Positions 14,210 through 18,024 of a DNA stretch of 53,858 nucleotides are shown piece by piece. This DNA comes from a virus. Taxonomy: Duplodnaviria; Heunggongvirae; Uroviricota; Caudoviricetes. The DNA is taken from positions 64,001 through 117,858 of the IMG/VR virus record IMGVR_UViG_3300008113_000007; one strand, 5' to 3'. Positions within the stretch are counted from its first letter, which is position 1. Every line of letters begins with the position of its first letter. The translations under genes were made by a program, and so were the position numbers. The notes below the pieces were generated by a model, which did no database searches, was not told the DNA's origin, and saw only the letters and a program-made list of their open reading frames with translations.

Positions 14210-14548
14210 ATGAAAGAAAAGGTAGAGTACGTATGGAGAACGATGACCTCGCAAGAAATCTGGGAAGCAATGCCGAGATCAGAGCAAGAGATGAAGGTCG
14301 TTATAAAGCCATCATTCCCTACTTACAGATGGGGAAAACTAATCACAAAAACCGCAACCAACGACAAAGAGTCGATTGAGAAGGCTATAACAATACTGAA
14401 ATTGAAGGGTGAGACAGTCAGAAAGAGAATCTGTCACGAGACTACTACTAAAAACAAAAGCAGAGGATTTGGTACTTTCTACAAAATTGAGATAAAAACT
14501 ATAAAAAACCATCAAAATTATAAACAAAGTAAAAACGACGATATATAA
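14210..14548 (+). CDS. small basic hypothetical protein (112 aa)
   Basis: Likely start MKEKVEYVW at 14210, in frame with the track ORF 14111..14548. AT-rich codon use. Confidence 0.6.
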   Translation: MKEKVEYVWRTMTSQEIWEAMPRSEQEMKVVIKPSFPTYRWGKLITKTATNDKESIEKAITILKLKGETVRKRICHETTTKNKSRGFGTFYKIEIKTIKNHQNYKQSKNDDI

Positions 14549-14565
14549 CAATAACTAAGACAATA

Positions 14566-14947
14566 GCCGTAGTGAGAGACAAGGGTTACTTCGATTTTCT
14601 GAATATAATTTGACACACACCCTATCTCGACTTACTCGGTCGATATTGAACGCAGACATAGTCATAGTTTGAGATACTTCGATACAAATTCTAAACTATG
14701 AAAAGAAGAGCTTAGCGGCAGCGAAGCCATGAATGCCCGGGTCTAAGGAACCGCGGGACTAGTGAAAAAGCCCGTCCGGGGGACGTAAAGCTCATAGGAA
14801 AAGCCTTGTTTCCGATAAAAGAAAGGTAGGTTGGCCAGACCTCGATGGCCGGCAGAGTTTCGGGAGAATTCTCTGTGACGCTTAGGCTAAATTTTCTTGT
14901 CTGCTTTCCTATTAGACCGGTGTGCTTGCGCATCGGTCTTTTTTTTT
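14566..14947 (+). ncRNA. putative structured non-coding RNA(s) upstream of the Ro60/TROVE gene (Y-RNA-like candidate)
   Basis: About 380 nt with no credible ORF, tiled almost end to end by helices: 14566-14640, 14663-14700, 14708-14793, 14794-14912 and the terminator. GWTACTTCGAT occurs twice. The region is adjacent to a Ro60 homologue. Confidence 0.6.
14914..14947 (+). terminator. intrinsic terminator between the putative ncRNA and the TROVE gene
   Basis: AGACCGGTG-tgcttgcg-CATCGGTCT followed by 8 T, ending 21 nt before the TROVE ATG. Confidence 0.75.
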
Positions 14948-14968
14948 GGTACTAATTTTTTATAAGAT

Positions 14969-16411
14969 ATGGCAAAGTTCAACACAAAGTCGCCTAAGGC
15001 GAAGACACTAACAGAGAACCTGGCAGGAGGCCAGGCCTACAAGCAGTCCGACGAGCTCGCGCTCGCTTCCATTTTACTGACGTCGTTCGTTAGCGACCAG
15101 TTCTACCGCGGATCCTCGGACACGCTGTCCGAGGTGAAGTCGCTTCTTTCCAAGGTAGATCCTGTATTCGCGGCTAAGGCTGCGATCTACGCAAGGGATC
15201 GTTTCGGAATGAGGTCGATAACGCACGCACTTGCAGGCGAGATTGCGCCTTTGGCATCCGGTGCAGAGTGGGGCAAGTCCTTCTACGAGAAGGTTGTCTC
15301 CAGGCCGGACGACATGACCGAGATCCTCTCGTACTATATGTCGATAAACGGCAAGGGTAAGGTGAAGTTCCCTAACTCCATCAAGAAGGGGTTCGCCGCG
15401 GCGTTCGACAAGTTCGACGACTACCAAATCGCGAAGTACAAGATGTCGAACAGGAACGTGAAGCTGGTAGACGTCGTGAACCTGGTGCACCCAGTACCTA
15501 CGGACAGGAACAAAGAGGCGCTGTCTCTACTTATTGCGGACAAGTTGAAGAGCACCGACACCTGGGAGGCCAAGCTTTCCGCCGCAGGACAGGCAGCTGG
15601 CAACGCAGAAGAGCTCGAGGTGCTGAAGTCGAACGCATGGAACGAGTTAGTCTCGACCAGGAAGATTGGCTACTTCGCGCTTCTTAGGAACCTGAGGAAC
15701 ATCATCGAGCAGGCTCCTGACGCAATCCCTGCGACGTGTGAGATGCTAGTAGACGCGAGGCTAATCTCCAAGAGCAAGGTTCTTCCTTTCAGGTTCGCGA
15801 CCGCGTACGACGAGATTTCCAGGCTCGGTGGCTCCCAGGAGGTAAGAGACGTCCTGGTGGCGATCAACAACGCGCTTGAGGTGTCAATCGTGAACGTGCC
15901 TAGGTTGGAAAACTGTCTGGTCGTGATGGACGTGTCCGGATCGATGAGTGGTAGGCCTTCCGAGATAGCGAGCCTTTTCGGCGCCGTGCTCGCGAAGGTG
16001 AACTCCTGCGACGTGATGACTTTCGCCGAGAGCGCGAGGTACATGAGCTACAACCCGCTCGACTCAGTGATGTCGATCAGGAAGTCGTTCAGGTTCAGCG
16101 GAGGTGGTACGAACTTTCCTTCCATCTTCAAGACGGCGAAGAAGGCTTACGACAACATAATCATCCTGAGCGATATGCAGGGATGGATCGGCTACTACAC
16201 ACCTACCAAGGAGTTCAACGAGTGGAAGAAGAGGACCGGTGCCAACCCGCACGTGTTCTCTTGGGACCTCGCGGGACACAGCACGCTTCAGTTTCCTGAG
16301 AGCCAGGTTTACTGTCTGGTGGGCTTCTCCGAGAAGGTGTTCGACGTGATGGAGCTGCTGAAGACCGACAGGGCCGCGCTGGTCAACGAGATCAAGGCGA
16401 TTGAGCTTTAG
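14969..16411 (+). CDS. Ro60/Rsr-like TROVE-domain RNA-binding protein with vWA domain
   Basis: ENLAGGQAY, LLTSFVSDQFY, AAIYARDRFGMRS, DDYQIAKYK, IGYFALLRNLRNI, LPFRFATAY, vWA MIDAS DVSGSMS, GGTNF and SDMQ. Confidence 0.92.
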   Translation: MAKFNTKSPKAKTLTENLAGGQAYKQSDELALASILLTSFVSDQFYRGSSDTLSEVKSLLSKVDPVFAAKAAIYARDRFGMRSITHALAGEIAPLASGAEWGKSFYEKVVSRPDDMTEILSYYMSINGKGKVKFPNSIKKGFAAAFDKFDDYQIAKYKMSNRNVKLVDVVNLVHPVPTDRNKEALSLLIADKLKSTDTWEAKLSAAGQAAGNAEELEVLKSNAWNELVSTRKIGYFALLRNLRNIIEQAPDAIPATCEMLVDARLISKSKVLPFRFATAYDEISRLGGSQEVRDVLVAINNALEVSIVNVPRLENCLVVMDVSGSMSGRPSEIASLFGAVLAKVNSCDVMTFAESARYMSYNPLDSVMSIRKSFRFSGGGTNFPSIFKTAKKAYDNIIILSDMQGWIGYYTPTKEFNEWKKRTGANPHVFSWDLAGHSTLQFPESQVYCLVGFSEKVFDVMELLKTDRAALVNEIKAIEL

Positions 16412-17253: not shown

Positions 17254-18024
17254 TTATTTCCAGATTTTTTCCAGGTTTATTTTGGCGCTCATATCGATTA
17301 CTCGGCCGTTTTTTCTGAGAGAGTACCTTTGCATCGGCTTTATCATCTCGACCGCATCGTCAATCTTTTTCTTCTCCTCGTCGTCTATGTCGAAGTTGAA
17401 TATCTGTATCAGGTTCTCAATCTCGTCGAAGTTGAGACTTTCCTTGCCGTCCAGAAAGAAAGTGAAGTTGTAGCTGTAGTCGTTGAACCTCTCTGCACCC
17501 GGCTGATAGCTCATTTCTATAAGGTATTGTGTAAGTGAGTTCTCTATTCCTATAGATGGCAACGTCAGTCTGTAGCCGTTCAACTCGAAGCACTTTTCCT
17601 TCGCGTTCCAAGTGTTGAGTAGGTACTCGTCGGGCACGAAGTAGTTGAAGTTCTCCGTGCAGAACTCCAATGTCTCTATTGTGTCTTTCTGCTCGTCGTA
17701 GTAGTTTATCTGTATTGGCTTTTTGTTTGTCATTCTGACGATTTCCAGGAACAGGTATACAACGTCGATGCTCTTTATGTGGTTGAAGTCGTATCCGTTT
17801 TCCAATATTACGTTCTTCCTGACGATTGACTTCAGCTTTGTGAGTACAGATCCAACGTTCTCTTTGTCGTAGTCCGACTCGTACTCTCGTATATCCTCCT
17901 CATTTGCACGTTTTATGTGGATTTTGAAGTCTCCTTTGTAGAAGAAGCCCTGAGATGGCAGCTTTATGACGTCTATTGCCCTTTTCTTTTGAAAAAATCT
18001 GATGAAGAAGTCTAAGAGTTTCAT
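17254..18024 (-). CDS. putative T4 gp26-like baseplate hub assembly protein
   Basis: N-terminal IKLPSQGFFY...IKRANEEDIREY, followed by IKSIDVVYLFLEIVRMT, resembles gp26-like proteins. Judged by eye. Confidence 0.5.
   Translation of the reverse strand: MKLLDFFIRFFQKKRAIDVIKLPSQGFFYKGDFKIHIKRANEEDIREYESDYDKENVGSVLTKLKSIVRKNVILENGYDFNHIKSIDVVYLFLEIVRMTNKKPIQINYYDEQKDTIETLEFCTENFNYFVPDEYLLNTWNAKEKCFELNGYRLTLPSIGIENSLTQYLIEMSYQPGAERFNDYSYNFTFFLDGKESLNFDEIENLIQIFNFDIDDEEKKKIDDAVEMIKPMQRYSLRKNGRVIDMSAKINLEKIWK

What the first reader, a model, noticed from the sequence alone, without database searches (positions are those of the whole stretch)
14708..14912. tRNA-sized cloverleaf followed by a second multi-stem domain
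Seen, domain A (86 nt): GAGCTT (14708-13) closes with AAGCTC (14788-93). It encloses GGC-agcgaa-GCC, then CCCGGGT-ctaagga-ACC(G)CGGG whose 7-nt loop CU-AAG-GA has anticodon-loop geometry, then CGTCC-ggg-GGACG. Seen, domain B: ATAGGAAA (14794-801) pairs perfectly with TTTCCTAT (14905-12). It encloses AGCCT/AGGCT, GGCCA/TGGCC and CAGAG/CTCTG. The domains abut each other and the terminator with almost no spacer. There is no T-arm or CCA, so this is not a tRNA. An alternative pairing GGGACT/AGCCC competes for 14755-57. Inference: a folded ncRNA, possibly a tRNA mimic or decoy.
Basis: partly seen in the sequence, partly recalled or inferred. Interest (0 to 1): 0.7.

Follow-up and report, generated by a model that had tools for sequence, protein, structure and literature searches.

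The report
Giant phage Y RNA beside Ro60
The flagged stretch is most of a roughly 250-base folded non-coding RNA that a lineage of lake-water jumbo phages carries just in front of their Ro60 gene; it is laid out like a Y RNA (the small RNAs that dock onto Ro60) but is two to three times larger and has a double-pseudoknot domain where known bacterial and phage Y RNAs have a tRNA-like domain.

Summary
The real unit is 14652-14904. Its two ends form a two-part terminal stem: P0 (14652-58 with 14898-904) and P0' (14666-73 with 14881-88). P0 is paired in 100% of cells and P0' in 98%, both with compensatory changes. UACUUCGA (14675-82) follows directly; this motif is about 20-40 times enriched, sense strand only, upstream of phage Ro60 genes. 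The remaining ~195 nt fold into conserved hairpins and, in most relatives, two covarying pseudoknots. Both domain-closing helices and AGCCT/AGGCT are not conserved. A Ro60 (TROVE+vWA) gene starts 21 nt after the terminator in the window. Short contigs from RNA libraries of three studies lie on the unit. No Rfam family matches, including YrlA and tRNA, although YrlA does detect RNAs beside more distant Ro60 genes. Best reading (0.68): a giant Y-type partner RNA of the phage Ro60 with a new effector domain, not a tRNA mimic. It is a new variant of a known kind. Earlier notes of this scan describe "giant Y-like RNAs" before phage Ro60 genes on other DNA.

The parts
14652..14658 (+). P0, 5' strand of the outer terminal stem (pairs with 14898-14904)
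   Evidence: All 448 cells form standard pairs across 64 distinct sequences, and 3 pairs show compensatory change. 0 of 500 shuffles reach this; slid controls reach at most 49%. RNAalifold also predicts it independently.
14659..14665 (+). 5' side of the internal loop between P0 and P0' (the opposite side is 14889-14897)
   Evidence: Follows from P0 and P0'. The sequence is nearly invariant in A3.
14666..14673 (+). P0', 5' strand of the inner terminal stem (pairs with 14881-14888)
   Evidence: 98.2% of cells pair. 0 of 500 shuffles reach this; slid controls reach at most 59%. Compensatory changes occur at two pairs. RNAalifold predicts it.
14675..14682 (+). UACUUCGA, the candidate Ro60-docking motif, directly after the 5' strand of the terminal stem
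   Evidence: ACTTCG occurs 117 times on the sense strand in the 600 nt upstream of 67 non-redundant phage Ro60 genes (2.9 per kb). The antisense rate is 0.07 per kb and the CDS rate 0.15 per kb. The extended consensus is GRGWUACUUCG. Its function is inferred from its position, which matches GNCGAA in YrlA (PMC4201824).
14663..14700 (+). Local hairpin P1 (14663-74 with 14690-700), an alternative to P0'
   Evidence: It is in the window's MFE structure. Across relatives it is 80% paired with no compensatory change, and about a quarter of relatives cannot form it.
14708..14731 (+).
   Evidence: The helix is kept with different base pairs in different clades. On the MAFFT columns it is 66-78% paired, partly because of misalignment.
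14736..14757 (+).
   Evidence: 59 of 64 relatives form a hairpin of at least 4 pairs here from 53 different sequences. Median z-score is -2.0.
14762..14770 (+). Conserved A-rich single strand GUGAAAAAG
   Evidence: Invariant or nearly invariant columns in A1 and A3.
14773..14785 (+). P4a hairpin (CGUCC/GGACG)
   Evidence: Homologous to helix 4, where 3 pairs show compensatory change. In other clades its loop pairs downstream to form pseudoknot PK-A, in which 4 of 5 pairs show compensatory change. The window's 3-nt loop cannot do this.
14788..14793 (+).
   Evidence: Positional homology in A3. The pairing is specific to the window's clade and has no covariation.
14797..14813 (+). P5 local hairpin (14797-801 with 14809-13)
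   Evidence: 96.8-97.9% paired, with one pair changing G-C to A-U. It is absent as a unit in the shortest relatives.
14828..14850 (+). Pseudoknot PK-B: stem 1 is 14828-31 with 14839-42; stem 2 is 14833-37 with 14846-50
   Evidence: Stem 1 is 95.6% paired, and its outer pair occurs as A-U, C-G, G-C and G-U with no mismatches. Stem 2 is 80-98% paired and shows U-A/C-G and G-C/U-A swaps. The window's pairs were read by hand because MAFFT shifts this clade by one column.
14852..14876 (+). Hairpin P(y) (14852-57 with 14871-76) with a 13-nt loop (14858-70)
   Evidence: 92.5-100% paired, and 3 pairs show compensatory change. The loop sequence varies once relatives are collected through the protein rather than through the RNA pattern.
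14881..14888 (+). P0', 3' strand
14889..14897 (+). 3' side of the internal loop of the terminal stem
14898..14904 (+). P0, 3' strand; probably the mature 3' end
   Evidence: RNA-library contigs of three studies stop at 14899-14904, which is only a weak hint.
14914..14948 (+). Intrinsic terminator (11-bp stem plus a U run) that ends the transcription unit
   Evidence: It is present, with different stem sequences, in all relatives.
14969..16411 (+). Ro60 gene (TROVE + vWA), the presumed protein partner
   Evidence: Pfam TROVE, E=2e-18. phrog_850 'RNA-binding protein', 1.6e-43. The closest solved structure is Thermus phage phiLo Ro60 (9KOP/9L5Y), E=8e-24.

Best explanation
Window 14652-14904 encodes a giant Y RNA, the RNA partner of the phage's own Ro60 protein.

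Shown:
- The RNA's two ends pair into a bipartite terminal stem: P0, an internal loop, then P0'.
- The motif UACUUCGA, which marks this Ro60 clade's Y RNAs, sits at the top of the stem's 5' strand.
- The ~195 nt in between fold into a conserved domain of hairpins (P2, P3, P4a, P5, P(y)) and pseudoknots. Most relatives have two pseudoknots (PK-A and PK-B); the window has PK-B only.

Inferred:
- The RNA is transcribed together with a small ordinary Y-like RNA (14567-14639) from a phage promoter upstream.
- Transcription stops at the terminator at 14914-48, and the 3' end is probably trimmed back to the stem.
- Ro60 docks on the stem and motif, as it does on animal and bacterial Y RNAs.
- The pseudoknotted domain takes the role that the tRNA-like domain or large loop plays in known Y RNAs. 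That role would be to tether Ro60 to a second factor, most plausibly a host 3'-5' exoribonuclease such as PNPase, and/or to gate access to the Ro60 cavity. This would redirect structured-RNA decay or RNA quality control during infection.
For: 1. Linkage. Every viral or metagenomic locus with enough downstream sequence, but one (L046), carries a Ro60 gene starting 79-417 nt after the RNA's conserved core motif (14859-90 in the window), on the same strand. Of the 32 protein-retrieved loci whose Ro60 is at least 62% identical, 26 have the RNA's signature. None of the 48 loci at 58% or below has it.
2. Y-RNA layout. P0 is 100% paired with 3 covarying pairs, P0' is 98.2% paired, and RNAalifold finds both independently.
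3. Motif. ACTTCG is 20-40 times enriched on the sense strand upstream of 67 Ro60 genes and always follows a GRG stem end. In more distant loci the same motif heads RNAs that Rfam YrlA detects.
4. Selection on structure. 86.7% of cells pair against 36-48% in slid controls, and 26 pairs show compensatory change. No ORF is conserved.
5. RNA evidence. Contigs of 172-324 nt from four metatranscriptome runs in three studies lie on 14582-14904. Relatives' versions are present as well.
6. Precedent. Thermus phage phiLo Ro60, the closest solved homologue, binds two Y-like RNAs encoded upstream of its gene and also binds host PNPase (PMC12135203). Y RNAs beside phage Ro60 genes are known (PMC4201824).
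Against: - No binding has been shown; docking of Ro60 is inferred from position and linkage only.
- UACUUCGA only loosely resembles GNCGAA or GGUCCGA. The YrlA model aligns it a few bases off the consensus motif.
- The effector partner is unknown. No PNPase, RtcB or RNA ligase gene lies next to the locus.
- The window and about three quarters of relatives can also form a local hairpin (14663-700) that excludes P0'.
- The window's clade lacks PK-A.
- Part of the alignment set was collected with a pattern taken from the RNA itself, which inflates apparent sequence conservation of the P(y) loop and the tail (versus 56, 58).
- Folding-energy z-scores are modest.
Confidence: 0.68

Rival explanations
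1. It is a cis-acting leader or attenuator. The structured RNA and its terminator would control read-through into the Ro60 gene, perhaps with Ro60 or a metabolite binding the leader.
For: The terminator ends 21 nt before the Ro60 start codon. The RNA always lies on the same strand, directly upstream. Mutually exclusive pairings exist: P1 against P0', and the P(y) 5' strand against P0 for the 3' tail.
Against: P0 and P0' close the unit on itself and leave the terminator outside. The terminator stem varies on its own, and no conserved anti-terminator pairing was found; the resemblance between the small Y RNA's 3' end and the terminator does not covary consistently. In several relatives 100-330 extra nucleotides, including a further Y-like RNA, separate the terminator from the gene. 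No riboswitch family matches. The alternative pairing P(z) does not exceed shuffles.
Confidence: 0.1
2. It is a structured RNA with a function of its own (an ornate RNA, a ribozyme, or a decoy for a host defence) that merely travels with the Y-RNA/Ro60 cassette. Only the small stem and motif module would have to do with Ro60.
For: The ~195-nt domain matches nothing in Rfam. It is far larger than the effector parts of known Y RNAs. Jumbo phages carry other large unexplained RNAs, as earlier notes of this scan record.
Against: The domain is enclosed by the same covarying terminal stem that carries the Ro60-type motif. It was found only with this Ro60 lineage. The seven pattern matches in bacterial genomes have no Ro60 gene and look like chance.
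Confidence: 0.15
3. It is a tRNA mimic or decoy. Domain A would be a cloverleaf that engages tRNA-binding enzymes, as YrlA does.
For: YrlA-type Y RNAs do contain a tRNA-like domain (PMC4201824), and such RNAs accompany more distant Ro60 genes of this clade. One relative (L013/L079) carries a T-arm-like hairpin at the P3 position.
Against: ARAGORN finds nothing. Rfam tRNA and YrlA give no hit at E<=10. There are no conserved D- or T-loop sequences. The 'anticodon' hairpin varies freely in loop and length. The cloverleaf's closing helix is not conserved.
Confidence: 0.05

Closest known systems
Bacterial and phage YrlA/YrlB Y RNAs (Chen et al. 2014, PMC4201824; Rfam RF02553)
   Same: Encoded next to a Ro60 gene and on the same strand. 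The 5' and 3' ends pair into a terminal stem. A short conserved motif sits at the 5' strand of that stem. Several Y RNAs can be made from one precursor upstream of the gene.
   Different: About 253 nt instead of roughly 80-120. There are no D- or T-arm sequences and no RF02553 or tRNA hit. The effector part is a hairpin and pseudoknot domain. The motif is UACUUCGA, not GNCGAAN0-1G.
Yrl1/Yrl2 of Thermus phage phiLo with phiLo Ro60 (PMC12135203; PDB 9KOP, 9L5Y)
   Same: A phage-encoded Ro60 (the closest solved homologue, E=8e-24) with Y-like RNAs encoded just upstream of its gene. This is the best experimental precedent for binding, and for recruiting host PNPase.
   Different: The phiLo RNAs are small stem-bulge-stem RNAs with a CGAA motif. 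No large pseudoknotted domain is described for them.
Deinococcus radiodurans Yrn1 in the Ro60-Y RNA-PNPase (RYPER) machine
   Same: It is the working model: the stem binds Ro60 and the other end of the RNA binds an exoribonuclease.
   Different: Its effector part is a large loop with T-arm-like features. PNPase binding by the phage RNA is untested.
Animal Y RNAs (Rfam RF00019)
   Same: A bipartite terminal stem interrupted by an internal loop or bulge, with the Ro60 site on the 5' strand (GGUCCGA there).
   Different: Different sequence, size, transcription and effector loops. No Rfam hit.

Membership tests
Y RNA in the broad sense (Ro60 partner RNA) | Encoded beside a Ro60/TROVE gene, on the same strand | tested here: met
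   In the window the Ro60 gene starts 21 nt after the terminator. The same arrangement holds in every relative but one with enough sequence.
Y RNA in the broad sense (Ro60 partner RNA) | The 5' and 3' ends base-pair into a terminal stem interrupted by an internal loop or bulge | tested here: met
   P0 is 100% paired and P0' 98.2%, both with covariation and controls.
Y RNA in the broad sense (Ro60 partner RNA) | Conserved Ro60-binding sequence on the 5' strand of the stem | tested here: inconclusive
   UACUUCGA is at that place and is 20-40 times enriched upstream of Ro60 genes. It is only loosely like GGUCCGA or GNCGAA, and binding is untested.
Y RNA in the broad sense (Ro60 partner RNA) | Physically bound by Ro60 | not testable with these tools
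   Needs EMSA, RIP or a structure.
YrlA (Rfam RF02553) | Match to the family covariance model | tested here: not met
   No hit at E<=10 in 14400-15100 and none at E<=0.1 in four relatives carrying this RNA. As a positive control, RF02553 hits RNAs upstream of more distant Ro60 genes at E of 3e-7 to 9e-3.
YrlA (Rfam RF02553) | tRNA-like domain with near-invariant D and T stem-loops | tested here: not met
   No ARAGORN hit and no Rfam tRNA hit. No such loops appear among the conserved columns of A3.
YrlA (Rfam RF02553) | GNCGAAN0-1G motif near the 5' end | tested here: not met
   The motif at that position is UACUUCGA(U). A CGAA does occur in the window's P2 loop (14722-25), but it is CAAA in most relatives.
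tRNA | Cloverleaf with T arm, D arm and an acceptor end | tested here: not met
Riboswitch or leader families of Rfam | Match to any curated model | tested here: not met
   No hit at gathering scores in the whole window. The best weak hit (L20 leader, 20 bits against a cutoff of 58.7, E=0.19) rests mainly on the terminator.

The most novel reading that the evidence does not exclude
Y RNAs may be modular scaffolds whose effector module can be swapped wholesale. In an abundant lineage of freshwater jumbo phages, the tRNA-like module has been replaced by a ~195-nt double-pseudoknot domain. That domain would recruit a so far unknown host or phage factor to the phage's Ro60, giving a new type of viral Ro ribonucleoprotein that reprograms host RNA decay or evades RNA-targeting defence.
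Probability: 0.45. Interest if true: 0.7.

Novelty: new variant of a known kind. Interest (0 to 1): 0.6.

Why it matters
Only a few partners of Y RNA effector modules are known: PNPase in Deinococcus and in phage phiLo, and tRNA enzymes for YrlA. What phage Ro60 proteins do is still open. This RNA family has three useful properties. It has a clearly delimited, strongly covarying new effector domain. It has many natural sequence variants. Its protein partner is encoded next door and is related to a crystallised phage Ro60. Together these make the question testable by binding assays, pull-down of the domain's partner, and structure determination. The family also adds an apparently uncatalogued structured RNA (no Rfam match) to phages that are common in lake metagenomes: more than 120 Ro60 clusters at 67-91% identity, and DNA runs from ten studies.

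Tried and rejected
Pairings tested and dropped:
- P(z), the P(y) 5' strand with the 3' tail (14852-56 with 14900-04). It is 95% paired but does not exceed shuffles (37 of 500 for cells paired, 29 of 500 for covariation). I read it as a shadow of P0.
- The invariant-looking P(y) loop with the U-rich tail. Tail variants are not compensated.
- The 5' P2 flank with the tail, and a 7-bp match seen in L085. Neither is consistent across clades.
- A possible anti-terminator between the small Y RNA's 3' end and the terminator. The resemblance does not covary consistently.

Other leads:
- The motif ACAGCRA, a lead from earlier AI notes, is not general upstream of this Ro60 clade.
- The seven pattern matches in bacterial genomes have no Ro60 gene and are treated as chance.
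- The weak Rfam hits (L20 leader, mmgR, an alphavirus frameshift element) are chance or due to the terminator.
- Single-column covariation scans were too noisy because the sequences are related.
- My first 'invariant blocks' were partly an artefact of collecting relatives with a pattern from those same blocks. This was corrected by collecting loci through the protein.

RNA libraries: no contig lay on the Ro60 coding region or on the upstream ORF. Contigs cannot show absence, so this is not used as evidence.

No covariance model of this RNA was built and no protein complex was predicted; the complex tool takes proteins only.

Full report
**Setting.** The window is part of a 118-kb IMG/VR virus record, estimated to be about half of a jumbo-phage genome. 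The finding (14708-14912) lies in a gene-free stretch. An intrinsic terminator follows at 14914-39 plus a U run. Twenty-one bases after the terminator a 480-aa gene begins, with TROVE and Ro60-type vWA domains (Pfam; phrog_850). The closest solved homologue of that protein is the Ro60 of Thermus phage phiLo (9KOP/9L5Y, E=8e-24). Rfam gives nothing at gathering scores in the whole window and only chance-level hits in the region at E<=10, with no tRNA and no YrlA. ARAGORN finds no tRNA.

**Relatives.** A 55-base match in a 635-kb uncultured phage showed the same arrangement there: RNA, terminator, then Ro60. Pattern scans then gave 11 viral and 48 metagenomic loci. With one exception (L046), every locus with enough downstream sequence has a Ro60 gene starting 79-417 nt after the RNA's conserved core motif. 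The seven matches in bacterial genomes have no Ro60 gene and are taken as chance.

These sets were collected with a pattern from the RNA itself, so I also collected 80 loci through the protein. That corrected my first impression. The 13-nt loop at 14858-70 is not invariant. The parts that persist down to about 62% Ro60 identity are the 3' tail, pseudoknot PK-B, hairpin P5 and the A-rich strand. Of the 32 loci at 62% identity or more, 26 have the RNA's signature, five have a divergent form and one is cut off. None of the 48 loci at 58% or below has it. The flanking genes are syntenic across the family (nrdA at 80-90% identity, a 256-aa unknown protein, a DNA methylase), so this is one phage lineage.

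**Anatomy.** On an alignment of 64 distinct full-length units (A3), two long-range helices join the ends of the RNA.
- P0 (14652-58 with 14898-904) forms a standard pair in all 448 cells. Three of its pairs show compensatory change (G-C/A-U in 11 sequences, A-U/G-C in 13 and in 5). No shuffle reaches this, and slid controls reach at most 49%.
- P0' (14666-73 with 14881-88) is 98.2% paired with compensatory changes at two pairs. No shuffle reaches this, and slid controls reach at most 59%.

RNAalifold predicts both helices without being told. Between them lies an internal loop (14659-65 opposite 14889-97). UACUUCGA (14675-82) follows immediately after the 5' strand of P0'.

The ~195 nt between the motif and the P0' 3' strand fold as follows:
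- hairpin P2;
- a hairpin P3 of free sequence and length, formed in 59 of 64 relatives from 53 different sequences;
- the conserved strand GUGAAAAAG;
- hairpin P4a, whose loop pairs downstream in most clades to form pseudoknot PK-A, with 4 of 5 pairs showing compensatory change;
- the optional hairpin P5;
- pseudoknot PK-B, whose stem 1 is 95.6% paired with four pair types at its outer pair, and whose stem 2 shows U-A/C-G and G-C/U-A swaps;
- the 6-bp hairpin P(y).

For the whole model, 86.7% of cells pair against 36-48% in slid controls, and 26 pairs show compensatory change (the earlier set is). No open reading frame is conserved: the longest open frame changes strand and frame from one relative to the next.

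GGC/GCC is P2. The 'anticodon arm' is P3. CGTCC/GGACG is P4a. GGCCA/TGGCC is PK-B stem 2. CAGAG/CTCTG is P(y). These are real elements.

- GAGCTT/AAGCTC keeps only 4 of 6 bp in the three nearest relatives. Everywhere else it is replaced by PK-A, for which the window's 3-nt P4a loop is too short. It may be a clade-specific substitute, but nothing supports it.
- ATAGGAAA/TTTCCTAT exists only in the window's clade. It uses bases beyond P0 and competes with P5.
- AGCCT/AGGCT uses the P0' 3' strand.

**Why a Y RNA.** Defining traits of Y RNAs are a terminal stem made by the two ends, a conserved Ro60 site on its 5' strand, and, in bacteria and phages, a gene next to Ro60 (PMC4201824). The first and third are met here. 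For the second, ACTTCG occurs 117 times on the sense strand in the 600 nt upstream of 67 non-redundant phage Ro60 genes. That is 2.9 per kb, against 0.07 per kb antisense and 0.15 per kb in the coding regions. The motif is always preceded by the end of a stem, giving the consensus GRGWUACUUCG (per-locus list).

In more distant loci the same motif opens RNAs that contain true tRNA-like D and T arms, and Rfam YrlA detects these below its threshold (E of 3e-7 to 9e-3). So the clade's ordinary Y RNAs are YrlA-like. In the window's lineage the same stem and motif frame a different, much larger inner domain.

A second, ordinary-sized Y-like RNA with the same motif lies just upstream at 14567-14639. 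The closest experimental precedent is phage phiLo, whose Ro60 binds two upstream Y-like RNAs and host PNPase (PMC12135203).

**RNA evidence.** Four metatranscriptome runs from three studies hold short contigs that lie on the unit: 324 nt on 14582-14904, 283 nt on 14583-14864, 273 nt on 14605-14876, and 172 nt on 14704-14875 with no differences. Contigs of relatives' versions are present too. Contigs from three studies stop at 14899-14904, and one runs into sequencing adapter three bases later. This is a weak hint that the mature RNA ends at the foot of P0, without the terminator hairpin. Contigs cannot prove ends or abundance.

**Mechanism and its limits.**
- Shown: the fold, its conservation, its linkage to Ro60, and its presence in RNA libraries.
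- Inferred: that Ro60 docks on the stem and motif; that the pseudoknotted domain is an effector module tethering Ro60 to another factor, with PNPase-type exoribonucleases as the model, or gating its cavity; and that the 3' end is trimmed.
- Against: no binding data exist. The motif only loosely resembles GNCGAA or GGUCCGA. No candidate effector gene lies nearby. A local hairpin (14663-700) competes with P0' in the window and in most relatives.

**Rivals.** A cis-acting attenuator of Ro60 is the main functional rival. It is disfavoured because the unit closes on itself, excludes the terminator, and is separated from the gene by extra elements in some relatives. It is not excluded. A Ro60-independent RNA that rides along in the cassette cannot be ruled out for the inner domain. 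The tRNA-mimic reading fails each test that could be run.

**Novelty.** I found no paper describing a Y RNA of this size or with pseudoknots, and Rfam has no model for it. Earlier notes of this scan report 'giant Y-like RNAs' before jumbo-phage Ro60 genes on other DNA. I could not compare sequences, so I treat those notes as agreeing leads only. I class this as a new variant of a known kind.

Noticed in passing
window 14567-14639: A separate, ordinary-sized Y-like RNA: a long bulged stem (14567-87 with 14619-39) with UACUUCGA at 14587-94. It is conserved upstream of the giant unit in all relatives and lies on the same RNA-library contigs.
   Followed up: partly
L008 7551-7640 (also L020, L038, L062, L065; L044 has about 330 extra nt): Some relatives carry a further structured element between the terminator and the Ro60 start. 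It has a closing stem and a CUCGAAAG (CGAA-type) motif, so it looks like a third Y-like RNA.
   Followed up: no
L013 about 535-590 (same as L079): In a 476-kb phage the variable hairpin P3 is enlarged and contains a T-arm-like hairpin: a 4-bp stem with a UUCAAUC loop. This is the only tRNA-like trace seen in the family.
   Followed up: no
L001 2826-2853 and L035: Two relatives have an extra hairpin between the motif hairpin and P2. Its loop (ACUUUCGGGUUCC) is intermediate between the Y motif and the P(y) loop (UUUCGGGAG...).
   Followed up: no
window 14652-57, 14852-57, 14871-76, 14899-904: Four strands are mutually related. The P0 5' strand and the P(y) 5' strand are alike, and both complement the 3' tail. 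Only P0 and P(y) are supported by covariation, but a folding intermediate or a switch is conceivable.
   Followed up: partly
window 14538-14548 and 100-130 nt upstream of the small Y RNA in relatives: A conserved GATATATA(A/C) box precedes the RNA cassette in all clades. It is a candidate phage promoter and was not tested.
   Followed up: no
window 14633-14640 versus 14933-14939: The 3' end of the small Y RNA (CUCGGUC here, CUCUGGUC in most relatives) resembles the 3' strand of the terminator. The window's clade changed both, but other clades did not, so no consistent covariation was found.
   Followed up: yes
window 17254-18024 (- strand): A 256-aa protein with no Pfam or PHROG family is conserved near Ro60 in 32 related loci (40-71% identity), next to an N6/N4 DNA methylase.
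   Followed up: no
L006 1-118 and 1308-1357: Upstream of a 42%-identical phage Ro60 lie the 3' end of a tmRNA (Rfam, E=1e-9) and a mini tRNA-like helix (T arm plus acceptor stem ending in CCA).
   Followed up: no
L101 598-918: A bona fide tRNA (Rfam, 54.6 bits) sits between two YrlA-type RNAs upstream of a 55%-identical phage Ro60.
   Followed up: no
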